From positions 520,676 to 584,675 of the forward strand of contig OY970130.1 of NCBI GenBank assembly GCA_963705935.1: a stretch of 64,000 nucleotides of DNA, given 5' to 3'. Origin of the DNA: an uncultured Verrucomicrobiae bacterium (GTDB taxonomy: Bacteria; Verrucomicrobiota; Verrucomicrobiia; Opitutales; Opitutaceae). The notes under the pieces were generated by a model that was given only the letters and a program-made list of their open reading frames with translations, was not told the DNA's origin and ran no database searches. Positions within the stretch are counted from its first letter, which is position 1. Every line of letters begins with the position of its first letter. Positions 3,992 to 38,568 of this stretch are shown here, one piece after another. Position numbers and translations under genes: made by a program.

Positions 3992-6900
3992 TCAGCACGC
4001 ATTCGGCCCGACGGGCGACGTTTCGCTCGCGGATCGGGCCAGCCAGCCGGCGAGCTCGTCGTCCGTCCGGATGGTCGTCCCGGTTTGGTATTCCGGGCCG
4101 AGCAAGCCGAGATAGCCCGGCTCGACGAAGCGGCGGCAGTGCAGAATCACGCGGGCCCGCTGGCCGGGGGCGCGCACCAGCCGGCCCAGCGCCTGGTTCA
4201 CCTTGGTCATGCCCGGAATCTGATATACGCGCCGGAACGCCTCCTCGCGGCTCGGCACGATGCGAACGGCTTCCGCCAGCCGTGCCCGCTGCACCGGGTT
4301 GACCTCGGGCAGAGCCGGCCCAACCACCAGCGCGTGACCGATGCGGCCGCCGAGCGCATCGATGCTCTCGGCGAAGCTCGATCCCAGGACCAGAAACAGA
4401 ACGTCTGCGGAGCGCAGCGACTCGGCGACCCACGCGGACTGCGCCGCGAGGTCCCGCCCCCGCGGCTGGATCGCCACGCGCACGGACGGGGCGACGGACT
4501 CCATTTCGCGTCGGATGGATTCGGCGTAGGCGTAGGAAGGGAAGAACACCGCCACGCCTCCCGGTCCGCGATCCGGGTTGGATTGCCGGATGGCGGGTGC
4601 GTGGGCCAGCTCAGGCGATGAGACCTGCGTATCATGGAATCCGGCCTCGACGCTGTGACGACTGTCAGTTCCCGGAACGGCGGCGGCGTGGTGCAGCGCC
4701 GCGATCGTCGACGCGGTGGTGGTGTAGTGGAGCGACCGGTGCTGGAACGTGGTGTCGACCCGGACGTCGTACGCCACGTCGTAGCTTGCATCGCGCCACG
4801 GAGTGCGCGCACGGAGAAGGGCCGGACGCACGGCGTCCCGCGATTCCTCGACCCGCAGCAACTCGGCGCCGGTCGTGAGCTGCCGGTAGAGTTTTTTCGT
4901 CACGCGCTTGTTCAGGGTTCCCAGCCGTTCCGGCATGGCGCGCGCCGGCAAGTCCGCCGCACCGGCGGCCTCAGCCGTAGGCCGCGAGCTCGCTCGCGCC
5001 TCCGCTCCGCCTGCCTCGGACTCGAACGTAGGCTGCGAGCTTGCTCGCGCTTCGGTGCTCGCGCCGGGTTCCGGCGTAGGCCGCGAGCTCGCTCGCGCCT
5101 CCGCTCCGCCTGCGTCAGGTTCGGGCGTAGGCCGCGAGCTCGCTCGCGCTTCCGTTCCGCCTGCCTCGGACTCGAACGTAGGCTGCGAGCTTGCTCGCGC
5201 TTCGGTGCTCGCGCTGGGTTCGGGCGTAGGCCGCGAGCTTGCTCGCGCTTCGGTGCTCGCGCCGGGCTCCGGCGTAGGCTGCGAGCTCGCTCGCGCCTCC
5301 GTTCCGCCTGCCTCGGACTCGAACGTAGGCCGCGAGCTCGCTCGCGCTTCGGTGCTCGCGCCGGGTTCCGGCGTAGGCTGCGAGCTTGCTCGCGCCTCCG
5401 TTCCGGTTGTGGCCAGATCGCGCGAGCGAGCTGGCGGCCTACGGGATTGGTCTGCGGCCGGCGCGACTGCGTCCAAGCCGCATGCCGCCGCAAAGCCCTC
5501 GACCGGCGAGAGCGTCGCACTCGCCAGCACCACGCCCCCGAATTCTCGCAGCGTGGCGCCGATCGCGCTGGCGGCGTCGAGACAGGTCACCGCCAGCTCG
5601 CGGTCCGCCGGGCTCCACCACAACCGTGGCAGGTCCGTGGCGGCCAGCTCCTCGACAAACGCGGGGATGGTCCAAAGCAGATCCGATACTGCCGGACCGA
5701 GCGCCGCCAGATCGAGCGCCGTGCCCGAAACCTGCCGGCCGATCTCGGACAGCAGCTGGCGGGCGTCGTCCTCTTCCGCGGCCGCAAGCCCGTGGTTGGC
5801 CCGGAGGTGATCGAGAAAGTGACACCAGTGTTCCCAGGCGGTGACCAGCGATGCGACGGGCCGGGTGCGGTGCAGTTCGTCGCGCACCGTGAACGCATCC
5901 GCCGCGTCGAAGTCGCGGGAGTAGACGTCCGCCACACGCGAGGGCAGGTTGTGCGCCTCGTCGAGCACCAGCAAGGTGCGGGCCGGAGTGAAGCCGGGTT
6001 GGTCGTAGAACAGGCCGCGATTGCGCGGCGCGAACACGTAGTTGTAGTCGCCGATCCACACGTCGTTGAACGCGAGCGCGGCACGGGTGATTTCGTAGGG
6101 GCAGATCAGCGCGGCGCGTCCGGCTGAACGCAGCGTCTCGATGTCGCGGGCGTGCCGCTCGTCGACATAGAACCGGGCCAGTCCGCTGACGGGCCAGCGC
6201 GCCGCCGCGTCCGCGAGATAGGCGCAGTTCTCGCGCACGCAGTGAAAGGTGTGGTTGATGCAGTGTTCGCTCTTGTTGCGCACGTGCCAGACGGCGACAC
6301 CGGACGCCGGCGCGGATCCGGTTTCCGCGAACCGGTCCATCGCACGCTCCACCGATCGAGCCTCGCCGGCACGTCGGCCGGCGGGCGGGGCGGCGCTCTC
6401 CGGGCTCGCCACCCGGCCGTCCGGCGTCGGCTGCCCGTTCGCCGTGATGCGGCCGCCCTCCGTCTTTTCCGACCGGGTCATCTTCGCGAGCGTTTGCACC
6501 ACCTGCAGCTGTCCGGTCGATTTGCTGGTGAGATACAGCAGGCGGTCGAAATGCCCGGAGCGCAGCTGGGCGAGCGCGAACTCGAGCAGCACTCCCGTCT
6601 TGCCGAATCCCGTCGGCGCCTCGAACAGCACCAGCGGGTGCCGCTCGAACATCGCGGTGAGATCCGCTTCCGTCGTTTCCTGGCCGGGCCGCGGGCAGTC
6701 GAACGCCGGACGGAAACGCAGATGACGCAGCCGCTCCCGCGCCCGCAGCCGAAGGTCGAGAAACTCCACGACCCGCTCGAGCTGCACCTTGAAGAACGCC
6801 TCGTCGCCCGCGGTCAGCGGGATCGTCTGCGCGAGCCCGCTCGCCACTTCGACGAACCACAGCTCCGAACGCACCCCCGCAATGTCATATAAGGTACGAC

Positions 6901-7306
6901 TTTGACCCAGCCCGCCGAGCCGGGTCAGCACGCCGTAGGTCGCGAGCTGGGCGAAGTAGTCGGGGTACGCGGCGCGCAGCTCGCTCTCGTCCGCCGGCAA
7001 TTCGCGCGTCACCGTCTTGATCTCGCGCAGGGTGATTTCGCCGTTCGTGCGCCGGAGCTGGTCGATGCGGCCGGTCAGCGCGATCGTCCATCCGTGGTGC
7101 ACGACCCGCCCTGCGATCGGCACCTCGAATTCGATCGCGGGCGTTTCCGACGCGGCGCGGGCCCGCAGCTCGTTGTGCCAGTGCGTTCCGAGCTGGGCGC
7201 GCCAGACACCCTGCGGACCGCCGGTGGCGTCGCGCGGACCCGTGACGAACGCCGAGAACTCGCCCACGCTCAGGCTGGCGGTGCGCTGGTCGAGGTCGAA
7301 GTCCAT
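3992..7306 (-). CDS. DinG/XPD(Rad3)-family ATP-dependent DNA helicase with N-terminal PD-(D/E)XK nuclease; contains in-frame REP array
   Basis: GRIDQL..EIKT..QLATY nuclease; EAPTGFGKT Walker A; four Cys ending in CPYE (Fe-S); LDEAHNL; SAT; FFPSY; QALGRLVR. Start set at MDFDLD (7306); ORF is open to 7393. Confidence 0.88.
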   Translation of the reverse strand: MDFDLDQRTASLSVGEFSAFVTGPRDATGGPQGVWRAQLGTHWHNELRARAASETPAIEFEVPIAGRVVHHGWTIALTGRIDQLRRTNGEITLREIKTVTRELPADESELRAAYPDYFAQLATYGVLTRLGGLGQSRTLYDIAGVRSELWFVEVASGLAQTIPLTAGDEAFFKVQLERVVEFLDLRLRARERLRHLRFRPAFDCPRPGQETTEADLTAMFERHPLVLFEAPTGFGKTGVLLEFALAQLRSGHFDRLLYLTSKSTGQLQVVQTLAKMTRSEKTEGGRITANGQPTPDGRVASPESAAPPAGRRAGEARSVERAMDRFAETGSAPASGVAVWHVRNKSEHCINHTFHCVRENCAYLADAAARWPVSGLARFYVDERHARDIETLRSAGRAALICPYEITRAALAFNDVWIGDYNYVFAPRNRGLFYDQPGFTPARTLLVLDEAHNLPSRVADVYSRDFDAADAFTVRDELHRTRPVASLVTAWEHWCHFLDHLRANHGLAAAEEDDARQLLSEIGRQVSGTALDLAALGPAVSDLLWTIPAFVEELAATDLPRLWWSPADRELAVTCLDAASAIGATLREFGGVVLASATLSPVEGFAAACGLDAVAPAADQSRRPPARSRDLATTGTEARASSQPTPEPGASTEARASSRPTFESEAGGTEARASSQPTPEPGASTEARASSRPTPEPSASTEARASSQPTFESEAGGTEARASSRPTPEPDAGGAEARASSRPTPEPGASTEARASSQPTFESEAGGAEARASSRPTAEAAGAADLPARAMPERLGTLNKRVTKKLYRQLTTGAELLRVEESRDAVRPALLRARTPWRDASYDVAYDVRVDTTFQHRSLHYTTTASTIAALHHAAAVPGTDSRHSVEAGFHDTQVSSPELAHAPAIRQSNPDRGPGGVAVFFPSYAYAESIRREMESVAPSVRVAIQPRGRDLAAQSAWVAESLRSADVLFLVLGSSFAESIDALGGRIGHALVVGPALPEVNPVQRARLAEAVRIVPSREEAFRRVYQIPGMTKVNQALGRLVRAPGQRARVILHCRRFVEPGYLGLLGPEYQTGTTIRTDDELAGWLARSASETSPVGPNAC
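4977..5442 (+). repeat. Intragenic REP array: 9 direct copies plus 1 inverted copy of GTAGGCYGCGAGCTYGCTCGCGC
   Basis: Copies start at 4977, 5028, 5076, 5127, 5178, 5226, 5274, 5325, 5373 (48 or 51 bp period); inverted copy at 5420-5442. Confidence 0.92.
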
Positions 7307-7380
7307 CGGTGCACACGAAAACCACGAACGCGGTGAAAAGAAAGCCCGGGTTGCGGCGGGCTCGACGACCGTACGCGAAT

Positions 7381-7671
7381 TGGAGGACGACATCCGCGTC
7401 TCGTCCGCCGATCGATACGCGCGGACCGGACGGAGCCGGTCCCTCCGCGAGGCAATGGACGGCAGGGACGGTCGTCCCTCGCATTGGATTCGGTTGTAGG
7501 AACATCGCTACGCCGCGACCGGATGGCCGGCGATCACCTCGTTCGGGAATGGAGGGACCGGCTTCGTCCGGTCCGCGAAGGTCGCTCGATGCTCGCGGAC
7601 GACACGGAGGTCGTCCCTCCACTCCTGCACGCCTCGATCCTCGCGGAAAACACGGAAGTCGTCGTCCCTCC
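7381..7671. repeat. GGAG-type REP-like palindrome cluster
   Basis: GGAG-ggaccgg-cttcgt-ccggtcc (7551-7574) with inverted ggacgac-acggag-gtcgtcc-CTCC (7597-7620); related pair at 7381-7446; degenerate copy near 7645-7671. Confidence 0.7.
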
Positions 7672-9226: not shown

Positions 9227-9406
9227 GTAGGAGCCTGCTTGCAGGCGATCACGCCAACCAGCGGCAACCGCCTGCCGATTCCGACGTAGGAGCCTGCTTG
9301 CAGGCGATCACGACCATCGTGCAAGGGGCCCCTGCGTGGGAGGCGCTGAGCGCGAGCAAGCTCGCGGCCTGCGGGGCGCTCGGATCGCCTGCAAGCAGGC
9401 TCCTAC
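9227..9406. repeat. GTAG REP cluster (GTAGGAGCCTGCTTGCAGGCGAT family)
   Basis: Direct copies at 9227 and 9286, inverted copy at 9384-9406; a helicase-type REP lies inverted at 9350-9372. Confidence 0.88.
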
Positions 9407-9503
9407 GCCGCCAACCGCCGACTCCGACGTCGGGTCCTGCCCGGAGGAGATCACCTCCCTCGCCAACCGCCGACTCTCTGCCCCCGTTCCACCTGCGCGG
9501 ACG

Positions 9504-13139: not shown

Positions 13140-14101
13140 AAGCCTTCAGCTACGTCAGTGCGCAAAGCGCCGGCTCCGCGGTCGAACTCGTCCGCGGCCA
13201 CGGCCGGTTCCTCGCGGGCGGCATGGACCTGCTCGGCGAAATGAAGGAAGGGCTGGTCGAGCCCGCCCTTCTCGTCGACATCAAGGCCGTGCCCGGCACG
13301 CGCGCGATCGCCGCCGGACCCGACCGCTGGTCGATCGGCGCCAATGTCACGCTCGCGGAGCTGGCCGACCACGCCGAGATGCGCCGGGTGCTGCCGGCGG
13401 TCGCCCAGGCGGCCGACGACGTCGGCTCGCCGCAGATGCGCAACCTGGCGACGATCGGTGGCAACCTGGCCCAGCACTCGCGCTGCTGGTACTACCGGCA
13501 TCGCGACGTGCATTGCTACAAGAAGGGCGGCGGCAAGTGCTTCGCCCGCAGCGGCGAGAACAAGTACCACAGCCTGTTCGTGAAGAGCCAGTGCCTGAGC
13601 CCGTGCGTCTCGAATCTCGCGGTCGCGCTGTCCGCGCTCGACGCGACGGTAATCGTGCAGCGCGGCGGAGCCACGACGTCGCTGACGATCGCGCAGCTGT
13701 ACGATCGCGCCTGGAAGAACGGGCGCGTGCACAACTCGCTCGAGCCCGATGACCTGATCGTCCGCGTCGAGATCCCGACGCCGGCCGGGGGACGGAGCGC
13801 ATATCTGCAGCTGGCGGAGAAAAGCGAGTTCGACTGGGCACTCGTGAGCTGCGCCGCGGCCGGACGGCTCGAAGGCGGCCGGCTCCGCGGGGCGCGCGTC
13901 GCGCTGGGCTGCGTCGCGGCGGTGCCGTGGCAGGTCGCCGAGGCGAACGCTTTCCTCGAGGGCCGCGAGCTGAACGACGCGACGGCGACGCAGGCCGCCG
14001 AGCTTCTCCTGCAGGAGGCAACGGCCCGCGAGCACAACGCCTACAAGGTTCCACTGGCGAAGACGATCATCCGCCGCACCCTCGCCAAGCTCACGGCGTA
14101 G
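13136..14101 (+). CDS. Xanthine dehydrogenase family FAD-binding subunit (PaoB/YagS-like)
   Basis: LAGGMDL, SPQMRNLATIGGN, RCWYYR..CYKKGG..C cysteine insert, HNAYK. Confidence 0.92.
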   Translation: MKAFSYVSAQSAGSAVELVRGHGRFLAGGMDLLGEMKEGLVEPALLVDIKAVPGTRAIAAGPDRWSIGANVTLAELADHAEMRRVLPAVAQAADDVGSPQMRNLATIGGNLAQHSRCWYYRHRDVHCYKKGGGKCFARSGENKYHSLFVKSQCLSPCVSNLAVALSALDATVIVQRGGATTSLTIAQLYDRAWKNGRVHNSLEPDDLIVRVEIPTPAGGRSAYLQLAEKSEFDWALVSCAAAGRLEGGRLRGARVALGCVAAVPWQVAEANAFLEGRELNDATATQAAELLLQEATAREHNAYKVPLAKTIIRRTLAKLTA

Positions 14102-14240
14102 GCCGCGAGCCTGCCCGCGCGATCCGCTCCACGGATACGGAATGTGCGCCGCGAGCTCGCTCGCGCGGTTCGGGGTGCGAATACATGCGTAGGCCGCGAG
14201 CTCGCTCGCGCGGTTCCGCGCCAGCGAGCTGGCGGCCTGC
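14098..14240. repeat. REP cluster, same family as the helicase array
   Basis: gtaggccgcgagcctgcccgcgc at 14098; gtaggccgcgagctcgctcgcgc at 14189; degenerate copy between them; inverted copy 14218-14240. Confidence 0.85.
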
Positions 14241-38452: not shown

Positions 38453-38568
38453 GCGCGAGCGAGCTCGCGGCCTGCGGGGAGGCGGAGTGTCGGGACACGC
38501 CGCCGCCGGTTCGGGCGTAGGCCGCCTGCTTGCAGGCGCGGCATTGGCGCAAGCGAGCTTGCCGGCTC
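38453..38568. repeat. REP cluster including a hybrid REP
   Basis: Inverted helicase-type REP at 38453-38475; gtaggccgcctgcttgcaggcgc at 38517; degenerate inverted copy 38547-38568. Confidence 0.75.

What the first reader, a model, noticed from the sequence alone, without database searches (positions are those of the whole stretch)
4977..5442. Translated REP array inside a nuclease-DinG/XPD helicase
Seen: nine direct and one inverted copy of a GTAG REP that is intergenic elsewhere in the window (9350, 14098-14240, 38453). Every period is 48 or 51 bp, so the frame is kept. This adds about 155 aa of (T/A)EARASS(Q/R)PT repeats just after the SAT motif, with all downstream helicase motifs intact. 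Copies 5373-5442 form a normal inverted doublet and the rest look like tandem expansions of one arm. Established: REPs are almost always extragenic; Rickettsia RPEs are the known coding precedent. Inference: a selfish repeat became a tolerated, length-variable protein linker, with ten hairpins in the mRNA.
Basis: partly seen in the sequence, partly recalled or inferred. Interest (0 to 1): 0.8.

Follow-up and report, generated by a model that had tools for sequence, protein, structure and literature searches.

The report
REP repeat array translated inside helicase
A small palindromic "selfish" DNA repeat that normally lies between genes has landed in a floppy linker of a DNA-repair-type helicase-nuclease gene of an Opitutus-like bacterium and multiplied to ten copies without breaking the reading frame; it is an unusually large example of a phenomenon already described, notably in Opitutus terrae.

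Summary
Window 4977-5442 has nine direct copies and one inverted copy of a 23-nt GTAG-headed palindrome, with periods of only 48 or 51 bp. It lies in frame in a 1104/1133-aa PD-(D/E)XK + XPD/DinG helicase gene on the minus strand.

- **Repeat family:** the same repeat occurs 207 times at 128 loci in this 5.16-Mb Opitutaceae genome, almost always outside coding frames. RAYT transposase genes are present.
- **Empty site:** 45 orthologues have a 15-38-aa proline-rich linker at this position. This protein has 182 aa.
- **Local growth:** the two spacer types occur nowhere else in the genome, so the array grew by local tandem duplication of REP+spacer units.
- **Gene integrity:** the host gene keeps all 257 residues that are invariant in 26 orthologues. 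AlphaFold2 models the insert as disordered coil.
- **Other cases:** three other genes here also carry in-frame copies (polyprenyl synthetase, a PMT-like glycosyltransferase and HsdM).

The novelty claim is overstated. Di Nocera et al. 2013 (PMC3733652) catalogued about 70 intragenic GTAG REPs in Opitutus terrae, the same genus, many in repair genes, with inserts up to 81 aa elsewhere. This scan has also found comparable cases on other DNA. What is new is the size (about 155-160 aa). Translation and length variability remain inferred.

The parts
3992..7306 (-). Host gene: PD-(D/E)XK nuclease + XPD/DinG-type Fe-S helicase. It is 1104 aa from the conserved Met (MDFDLDQRT). The ORF stays open up to an ATG at 7393, which would give 1133 aa (P0001).
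   Evidence: ORF and translation. The 1104-aa form is the one held in the public protein collection (P0002). The conserved start is aligned. A terminator-like hairpin at 7363-7342 lies upstream of 7306.
6716..7204 (-). PD-(D/E)XK nuclease domain (P0001 residues 64-226)
   Evidence: Pfam PF12705, E = 2.8e-7. The D...E-I-K residues are invariant across 27 orthologues.
5906..6280 (-). DEAD_2 / Fe-S and arch region of helicase domain 1 (P0001 residues 372-496)
   Evidence: Pfam PF06733, E = 2.5e-12. The cysteines and the DEAH box are invariant.
4928..5473 (-). Inter-domain linker, 182 aa here against 15-38 aa in orthologues. It holds the array plus about 26 aa of non-repeat linker.
   Evidence: Anchor-to-anchor linker lengths in 46 proteins. 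AlphaFold2 gives pLDDT below 50 and no secondary structure for model residues 621-796.
4977..5395 (+). Nine direct REP-A copies (23 nt each, REP sense on the + strand), separated by two recurring spacer types of 28 nt and 25 nt. Units are 51 or 48 bp and are read on the - strand as TFESEAGG(T/A)EARASS(R/Q)P and TPEPGASTEARASS(Q/R)P.
   Evidence: The spacers occur nowhere else in the genome.
5420..5442 (-). Inverted REP-A copy (1 mismatch). It forms a doublet with the copy at 5373-5395 and is read as RRPPARSR.
   Evidence: The 47-nt offset falls in the 41-50 nt mode of other +/- doublets in the genome.
4112..4564 (-). Helicase_C_2 (helicase domain 2, P0001 residues 944-1094), downstream of the array and in the same frame
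   Evidence: Pfam PF13307, E = 2.2e-18.
14098..14240 (.). REP-A cluster outside a coding frame (+++-). Periods are 46, 45 and 29, and the spacers are unrelated to each other.
9350..9372 (-). Single REP-A copy nested between two copies of the second REP family (REP-B, GTAGGAGCCTGCTTGCAGGCGA)
38453..38475 (-). Single REP-A copy shortly after an in-frame TGA; not spanned by a coding-like ORF

Best explanation
A GTAG-type REP inverted doublet (REPIN-like) inserted into the DNA that encodes a short, proline-rich, disordered linker. This linker joins helicase domain 1 (just after motif III, SAT) to the rest of a nuclease-XPD/DinG helicase. One arm plus its adjacent spacer was then amplified locally by replication slippage or unequal recombination between the direct REP copies, giving nine direct copies. 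Only variants whose units are multiples of 3 bp (48 and 51) survive, because a frameshift would remove the conserved helicase domain 2. The array is therefore read through and adds a tolerated, essentially neutral, disordered segment of about 155-160 aa.

Shown here: the identity of the repeat, the empty site in orthologues, the local tandem origin, the preserved frame, the intact host gene, and the predicted disorder.

Inferred: RAYT-mediated insertion, slippage as the growth mechanism, actual translation, and neutrality.
For: 1. **The repeat is a real REP family.** There are 207 copies at 128 loci in the 5.16-Mb genome, and this array is the largest cluster. The element has a GTAG head and a GCGAGC/GCTCGC stem. 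The genome has 26 adjacent inverted pairs. Four RAYT-like genes score above the NCBIfam cut-off. The same repeat occurs in other genera of the family, for example 98 copies in G049.
2. **The site is empty elsewhere.** The linker is 15-38 aa in 45 orthologues and 182 aa here. The site is also empty in G049, G054 and G060, which carry REP-A elsewhere. No other protein of 623-1983 aa in the 5.8-billion-cluster collection covers the array.
3. **The array grew locally.** The 28-nt and 25-nt spacers occur only in the array. One unit (5076) is a hybrid of the two types. All 8 direct periods are 48 or 51 bp. Other direct REP-A pairs are spaced 32-148 bp, and only 20 of 46 of those spacings are multiples of 3.
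4. **The host gene is intact.** All 257 columns invariant in 26 orthologues are kept. The Walker A motif, the DEAH box, the Fe-S cysteines and the HD2 motifs are present.
5. **The insert is predicted to be disordered.** pLDDT is below 50 over model residues 621-796, between confident flanks.
6. **There is no sign of selection on the peptide.** Among same-type units, 5 variable codons are synonymous-only and 7 change the amino acid.
7. **The same REP is tolerated in frame in other genes here.** These are a polyprenyl synthetase, a PMT-like glycosyltransferase and HsdM. The polyprenyl synthetase insert is absent from two congeners.
8. **Published precedent in the same genus** (PMC3733652).
Against: The array is open in 4 of 6 frames, so the open frame alone says little. 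No RAYT gene is flanked by REP-A itself; the RAYTs are flanked by two other REP families, so the insertion mechanism is an inference. The insertion cannot be dated, so retention of conserved residues does not strictly prove function after the insertion. Copy number rests on a single assembly.
Confidence: 0.8

Rival explanations
1. The insertion killed the gene. On this reading the helicase is a young pseudogene whose frame is still open only because too little time has passed, and the array is not part of any working protein.
For: The nine direct REP copies match the consensus pattern perfectly, which suggests a recent event. The array's codon usage is not gene-like: third-position GC is about 0.69 against about 0.83 in the flanks (reading). 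The array is stop-free in 4 of 6 frames anyway.
Against: All 257 columns invariant in the orthologues are retained and there is no frameshift or stop in 3.3 kb. Every one of the 8 unit lengths is a multiple of 3. The insert sits in a linker that varies from 15 to 38 aa and already tolerates foreign repeats in other species. In-frame REPs also sit in presumably needed genes such as a polyprenyl synthetase.
Confidence: 0.07
2. The copy number, or the array as a whole, is an assembly artefact of a repeat-rich region.
For: Tandem repeats are prone to collapse or expansion during assembly. No reads could be examined. No second assembly or metagenome contig carries the array.
Against: The genome is a single 5.16-Mb contig. 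The 466-bp array is far shorter than long reads. The units are not identical: there are two spacer types, a hybrid unit, and C/T variants in four combinations. This gives unique anchors and is not what a mis-joined identical repeat would look like. The result is exactly in frame.
Confidence: 0.05
3. The array is adaptive rather than merely tolerated. It could be a selected, length-tunable spacer between the helicase modules. Alternatively its DNA or mRNA hairpins could regulate expression of the gene, or could serve as substrates or sensors for this hairpin-unwinding type of helicase.
For: The array region is predicted to fold much more stably than shuffled sequences (-286 kcal/mol, z = -5.3). 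The literature notes that intragenic REPs are often found in replication and repair genes (PMC3733652). The same linkers in sister species hold other genome-wide repeats.
Against: The array is unique to one genome. The peptide sequence shows no sign of constraint, with 7 of 12 variable codons changing the residue. It is predicted to be disordered and has no Pfam match. No terminator-like site lies in it. REP-A also sits in unrelated enzymes, which argues against a helicase-specific role.
Confidence: 0.08

Closest known systems
Intragenic ('codogenic') GTAG-tagged REPs, Di Nocera, De Gregorio & Rocco 2013, BMC Genomics 14:522 (PMC3733652), especially the ~70 cases in Opitutus terrae PB90-1
   Same: These are GTAG-headed 20-40-nt palindromes, normally extragenic, inserted in frame in genes of known function. 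Many are in DNA repair and helicase genes (uvrA, ligase, dnaE2, recD, HrpA, an N6-methylase). They appear as singles, dimers or groups, and shorter homologues lack them. O. terrae is in the same GTDB genus as this genome (G008 is O. terrae by P0004 and its 5,957,605-bp contig).
   Different: The REP sequence family differs. O. terrae has GTAG-17/18/19, read as VAGVADPG, VGPALAAG and GTGVPPV. Here the repeat is read as VGRELARA or ARASSRPT, and is closer to the Pseudomonas GTAG-1 reading 'GSELARE'. The O. terrae orthologue of this helicase has no insert. Published inserts encode 7-53 aa in O. terrae and at most 81 aa anywhere. This one has ten REPs, about 155-160 aa, and grew by in-frame tandem duplication of REP+spacer units.
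REPIN-RAYT systems (Bertels & Rainey 2011, PMC3116915; Nunvar et al. 2010, from my own knowledge of the field)
   Same: Shared features are inverted REP doublets, hundreds of copies per genome, and RAYT (Y1 HUH transposase) genes flanked by REPs. Here RAYTs lie at genome positions 3.49 Mb and 0.03 Mb, flanked by REP-B and REP-C.
   Different: REP-A itself flanks none of the four RAYT-like genes. Classical REPINs are extragenic and do not form long same-orientation arrays of constant period.
Rickettsia palindromic elements (RPE; Ogata et al. 2000, as cited in PMC3733652 and PMC3184786)
   Same: These are palindromic repeats inserted in frame into functional genes and translated as surface peptides.
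   Different: RPEs are about 105-146-bp elements of a different sequence class in an obligate intracellular alphaproteobacterium (PMC3184786). They are typically present as one copy per site, not as a 23-nt GTAG REP amplified in tandem.
Finegoldia magna DinG (PDB 9kqh) and XPD/Rad3 helicases
   Same: This is the best sequence and fold match for the host protein. The profile E-value is 1.8e-38 and the best stretch starts at residue 32 of the chain, so it includes the region N-terminal to the helicase core. Foldseek gives E = 3.6e-32 and TM 0.72 normalised on the target. Shared features are the Fe-S cysteines, the DEAH box, motif III and HD2.
   Different: Sequence identity is about 15%. The Opitutaceae proteins carry several long variable linkers. 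The solved protein has no counterpart of the insert.

Membership tests
GTAG-type REP (repetitive extragenic palindrome) | Short (20-40 nt) imperfect palindrome with a conserved 5' GTAG head | tested here: met
   The 23-nt unit GTAGGCYGCGAGCTYGCTCGCGC has a GCGAGC / GCTCGC stem.
GTAG-type REP (repetitive extragenic palindrome) | High copy number, dispersed, predominantly outside coding frames | tested here: met
   There are 207 copies (up to 3 mismatches) at 128 loci. Only 4 loci are spanned by an ORF with a coding GC3 signature on both sides. This rests on a home-made coding test, not on a gene caller.
GTAG-type REP (repetitive extragenic palindrome) | Frequent inverted doublets (REPIN architecture) | tested here: met
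   Outside the array there are 18 '+-' and 8 '-+' adjacent pairs. The commonest offset is 29-30 nt, with a second group at 40-50 nt. G049 shows regular 45-nt doublets.
GTAG-type REP (repetitive extragenic palindrome) | A cognate RAYT (REP-associated tyrosine transposase) gene flanked by the same REP | tested here: inconclusive
   Four RAYT-like genes score above the NF047646 cut-off. One is flanked by REP-B and one by REP-C; none is flanked by REP-A. REP-A shares the GTAGG head with REP-B, and hybrid sequences exist (GTAGGCCGCCTGCTTGCA, 21 copies). Mobilisation in trans is plausible but untested.
Intragenic in-frame REP insert (sensu Di Nocera et al. 2013) | The REP lies inside an ORF of recognisable function, with homologous coding sequence in the same frame on both sides | tested here: met
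   Pfam domains lie on both sides. Orthologues align up to residue ~656 and again from residue ~816.
Intragenic in-frame REP insert (sensu Di Nocera et al. 2013) | Shorter homologues in related genomes lack the insert | tested here: met
   45 of 45 orthologues with both anchors have a 15-38-aa linker. The site is empty in three REP-A-bearing genomes. No database protein covers the array.
Intragenic in-frame REP insert (sensu Di Nocera et al. 2013) | The decorated protein is actually made | not testable with these tools
   No read or proteome data were available. The only support is indirect: 257 of 257 invariant residues are retained.
XPD/Rad3/DinG Fe-S SF2 helicase with N-terminal PD-(D/E)XK nuclease | Walker A, DEAH box, motif III, HD2 (Helicase_C_2), four conserved cysteines between Walker A and B, and nuclease D...ExK residues | tested here: met
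   The sequence shows GFGKT, DEAH and SAT. Pfam finds DEAD_2, Helicase_C_2 and PDDEXK_1. C349, C356, C361, C402, D82, E95 and K97 are invariant. The best fold match is DinG 9kqh. Enzymatic activity was not tested.
Rickettsia palindromic element (RPE) | Element of about 105-146 bp belonging to the RPE sequence families | tested here: not met
   The unit here is a 23-nt GTAG REP and the 48/51-bp periods include spacers unique to this locus. The RPE size comes from PMC3184786. The resemblance is in behaviour only.

The most novel reading that the evidence does not exclude
The disordered linkers of this Opitutaceae nuclease-helicase may be recurrent 'safe harbours' that capture whichever short repeat is proliferating in each genome. 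Sister species carry several patches per gene of a genome-wide (TCAACYC)n or (CAAAACY)n heptamer repeat in the same loops. This genome has none of those and instead grew a REP array there. If the array is also copy-number polymorphic, the gene would be a natural system for watching a selfish repeat turn into protein sequence and for measuring how linker length affects an XPD/DinG-type enzyme.
Probability: 0.3. Interest if true: 0.5.

Novelty: new member of a known kind. Interest (0 to 1): 0.33.

Why it matters
This is a clean case with a defined empty site. A mobile palindromic repeat has created about 160 residues of new, disordered protein sequence inside a conserved DNA-repair-type enzyme without destroying it. 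That is roughly twice the largest REP-encoded segment in the 2013 catalogue. It adds a data point to the observation that helicase and repair genes often carry such inserts. It also shows a second growth step, in-frame tandem amplification of REP+spacer units, beyond simple insertion.

It does not open a new category. The phenomenon is published for the same genus, and this scan has found it repeatedly in other phyla.

In practice it warns annotators that 'extragenic' repeats can be genuine coding sequence. It also offers repeated 16-17-residue tryptic peptides that would make a proteomic test easy.

Tried and rejected
- **Other strains or similar arrays.** Two JGI metagenome scans, one for an array-specific junction and one for three REP-A copies at 24-28-nt spacing, found nothing. 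A protein search over residues 600-880 found only the window's own protein covering the array.
- **A possible REP relic in an orthologue.** The 'TEPRASIPS' linker of one orthologue (L003/L039) is not one; its DNA is unrelated to REP-A.
- **The second long variable linker (P0001 residues ~312-365).** It is not repeat-derived. Only 4940-5458 of the gene matches DNA elsewhere in the genome.
- **REP-B in coding frames.** Only two weak candidates close to the start of the spanning ORF appeared, and I did not count them.
- **Empty site of the HsdM insert.** It could not be defined, because congeneric homologues are only 41-43% identical.
- **Terminators.** No intrinsic terminator-like site lies within the array on the coding strand.
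- **Rickettsia RPE as the family.** Rejected on element size and sequence class.
Full report
**What is in the sequence**

Window 4977-5442 holds nine direct copies of GTAGGCYGCGAGCTYGCTCGCGC, all with 0 mismatches, followed by one inverted copy at 5420-5442 with 1 mismatch. The window as a whole has 16 matches against 0.02 expected from shuffles. Start-to-start distances are 51, 48, 51, 51, 48, 48, 51 and 48 bp, and the offset to the inverted copy is 47 bp. Tandem Repeats Finder reports a 99-bp higher-order period. The inverted copy pairs with every direct copy at 92-96% complementarity.

The region lies inside a minus-strand ORF, 3992-7393, which reads the array as alternating TPEPGASTEARASS(Q/R)P and TFESEAGG(T/A)EARASS(R/Q)P units.

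One caution applies. The array is free of stop codons in four of six frames, so an open frame alone is not remarkable. What matters is that every unit is a multiple of three and that the conserved C-terminal half remains in frame.

**The host gene**

Pfam finds PDDEXK_1 (residues 64-226), DEAD_2 (372-496) and Helicase_C_2 (944-1094). NCBIfam gives only sub-threshold rad3/DinG matches. A profile of 27 orthologues hits the solved Finegoldia magna DinG (9kqh) at E = 1.8e-38, and the best stretch starts at residue 32 of the chain, so it reaches the region N-terminal to the helicase core. The next hits are XPD proteins. Foldseek on the AlphaFold2 model agrees: 9kqh at E = 3.6e-32, TM 0.72 normalised on the target.

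The conserved start is the Met of MDFDLDQRT (window 7306), which gives 1104 aa. That is the length held in the public collection as P0002. A terminator-like hairpin lies just upstream of this start.

Record titles of orthologous loci, and the identity of G008 as Opitutus terrae, place the genome in Opitutaceae. G008 is identified through P0004, a 917-aa protein named by NCBI and encoded on a 5,957,605-bp contig. The window's genome is in the same GTDB genus as O. terrae.

**The repeat is a genuine REP family**

- The 5.16-Mb single-contig genome (67% GC) carries 207 copies (up to 3 mismatches) at 128 loci. The helicase array is the largest cluster.
- A home-made test looked for an ORF spanning each locus with a coding GC3 signature on both flanks. 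It flagged only 4 of the 128 loci.
- Inverted doublets are common.
- A second family, REP-B (GTAGGAGCCTGCTTGCAGGCGA, 271 copies), flanks a RAYT gene on both sides.
- A third family, REP-C (GTAGCCGGGCTCGCTGAGCCCGG), forms 45-bp-period tandem arrays on both sides of another RAYT gene.
- Four RAYT-like genes exceed the NF047646 cut-off.
- No RAYT is flanked by REP-A. REP-A shares the GTAGG head with REP-B, and hybrid sequences exist. Mobilisation in trans is plausible but remains an inference.
- REP-A is patchily present in other genera of the family. With up to 1 mismatch there are 98 copies in G049, 29 in G033, 16 in G054, 7 in G060, and none in the congener G013.

**The empty site**

Eleven relatives found by genome search, and 72 loci from named assemblies, encode the same protein without the array. 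Between the conserved anchors F-x-x-x-CGL and RLGxLNKR, the linker is 15-38 aa in 45 orthologues. It is typically DAPPE...PPPAPE. Here it is 182 aa. About 26 of the 182 residues are non-repeat sequence, which is within the ancestral range.

The site is also empty in G049, G054 and G060, which carry REP-A elsewhere. A search of the 5.8-billion-cluster protein collection with residues 600-880 found 174 homologues. Only the window's own protein covers the array, and it is a singleton. Two metagenome DNA scans found no related array.

**How the array grew**

The spacers fall into two types: 28 nt (CTCCGYTCCGCCTGCCTCGGACTCGAAC) and 25 nt (TTCGGTGCTCGCGCCGGGTTCCGGC). Neither occurs anywhere else in the genome. 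Within the gene, only 4940-5458 matches DNA elsewhere in the genome. The unit at 5076 is a hybrid of the two types (TPEPD-AGGAEARASSRP), and the C/T variants of the REP occur in all four combinations. This pattern fits unequal exchange or slippage among units, not nine independent insertions.

The REP-A cluster outside a coding frame in the same window (14098-14240) is different: its periods are 46, 45 and 29 and its spacers are unrelated. Genome-wide, direct REP-A pairs outside the helicase array are spaced 32-148 bp, and only 20 of 46 of those spacings are multiples of three.

The terminal pair 5373/5420 has an offset of 47 nt, which falls in the 41-50-nt mode of ordinary doublets.

**Is the gene still a gene?**

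All 257 alignment columns that are invariant in the 26 other orthologues are retained here. These include the Walker A motif, the DEAH box, the Fe-S cysteines, motif III and the HD2 motifs.

AlphaFold2 was run with the 27-sequence alignment and gave pTM 0.69. It models residues 621-796 (1104-aa numbering) with pLDDT below 50 and no secondary structure, between confidently folded flanks. The segment has no Pfam match.

Among same-type units, 5 variable codons are synonymous-only and 7 change the residue. The peptide itself therefore shows no sign of constraint, as expected for a tolerated spacer.

The array region is predicted to be highly structured as mRNA (-286 kcal/mol, z = -5.3). It contains no terminator-like site on the coding strand.

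Translation has not been observed.

**The helicase is not a lone case in this genome**

REP-A also lies in frame, read in the other orientation as VGRELARA, in three other genes:

| Gene | Genome position | Form |
|---|---|---|
| Polyprenyl synthetase | 991835-991902 | doublet |
| PMT-family glycosyltransferase | 2298592-2298671 | doublet |
| HsdM methylase | 4187486-4187508 | single |

In the polyprenyl synthetase and HsdM the Pfam domain alignment spans the insert; in the glycosyltransferase the insert lies at the end of the matched PMT domain. The polyprenyl synthetase insert is absent from two congeners. The HsdM site could not be resolved because the homologues are too distant.

**Comparison with what is known**

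Di Nocera, De Gregorio & Rocco (2013, PMC3733652) surveyed GTAG and CGTC REPs. They report that REPs inside genes occur in several species and that many lie in replication and repair genes. [quoted passage not shown]

Their Additional file 3 lists about 70 O. terrae cases of 7-53 aa. These include two uvrA genes, DNA ligase, dnaE2, recD, HrpA, a DEAD-box helicase and an N6-methylase. The largest REP-encoded segments anywhere are 43-82 aa by their text, and 81 aa in Sphingomonas wittichii dnaE2 in the table.

The O. terrae REP families differ from REP-A, and the O. terrae orthologue of this helicase carries no REP. This scan has also reported in-frame REPs in lhr, addA, hrpA and other helicase genes of other phyla, including a tandem array of about 145 residues.

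The present case is therefore a new and unusually large member of a known kind. It has ten REPs and about 155-160 aa, roughly twice the largest published insert. It shows a clear second step of in-frame tandem amplification.

**Verdict**

My best explanation is a REP doublet insertion into a disordered linker, followed by frame-preserving tandem expansion, tolerated as neutral disordered sequence. I give it confidence 0.8. The rivals are a young pseudogene (0.07), an assembly artefact in copy number (0.05) and an adaptive or regulatory role (0.08).

Noticed in passing
L008, L009, L010, L011, L026 (orthologous helicase loci); genomes G006, G008, G009: In sister species the same helicase carries several patches per gene of heptamer repeats: (TCAACYC)n, read as STLNPQLST, and (CAAAACY)n, read as TQNSKPKTQN. 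They sit in its variable linkers, including the linker that holds the REP array here. The (TCAACYC)3 pattern is genome-wide there (268, 228 and 135 matches in G006, G008 and G009) and absent from this genome (0 matches). The linkers look like recurrent sinks for whichever repeat is active in each genome.
   Followed up: partly
G000:C1:991835-991902 (L016), 2298592-2298671 (L017), 4187486-4187508 (L018): Three further real genes carry REP-A in frame, read as VGRELARA: a polyprenyl synthetase, a PMT-like glycosyltransferase and an HsdM methylase. The polyprenyl synthetase insert is absent from two congeners.
   Followed up: partly
L014:1100-2150 (G000:C1 about 30.6-31.7 kb): A RAYT gene (NF047646, 110 bits) is flanked on both sides by tandem arrays of 3 and 4 copies, with a 45-bp period, of a third REP family (GTAGCCGGGCTCGCTGAGCCCGG). 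Same-orientation REP arrays of constant period are therefore a native architecture in this genome.
   Followed up: partly
Genomes G049, G033, G054, G060 (other genera of the family): REP-A, with the same C/T variants, occurs in a few other genera (98, 29, 16 and 7 copies) but was not found in the one congener sampled or in most of the family. This patchy distribution suggests either horizontal spread or repeated loss of the REP/RAYT system.
   Followed up: no
window 7307-7393: The ORF extends 29 codons upstream of the conserved Met (MDFDLDQRT). A terminator-like hairpin (7363-7342, minus strand) lies inside this extension. The real start is probably at 7306, giving 1104 aa.
   Followed up: yes
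window 9286-9420: A single REP-A copy (9350-9372) is nested between two inverted copies of REP-B (GTAGGAGCCTGCTTGCAGGCGATC). This is an example of one REP family sitting inside a doublet of another.
   Followed up: no
window 6283-6460 (P0001 residues ~312-370): There is a second long, poorly conserved and predicted-disordered linker (model residues 282-361, pLDDT below 50) between the Walker A region and the Fe-S domain. It varies in length in all orthologues but is not derived from any repeat in this genome.
   Followed up: yes
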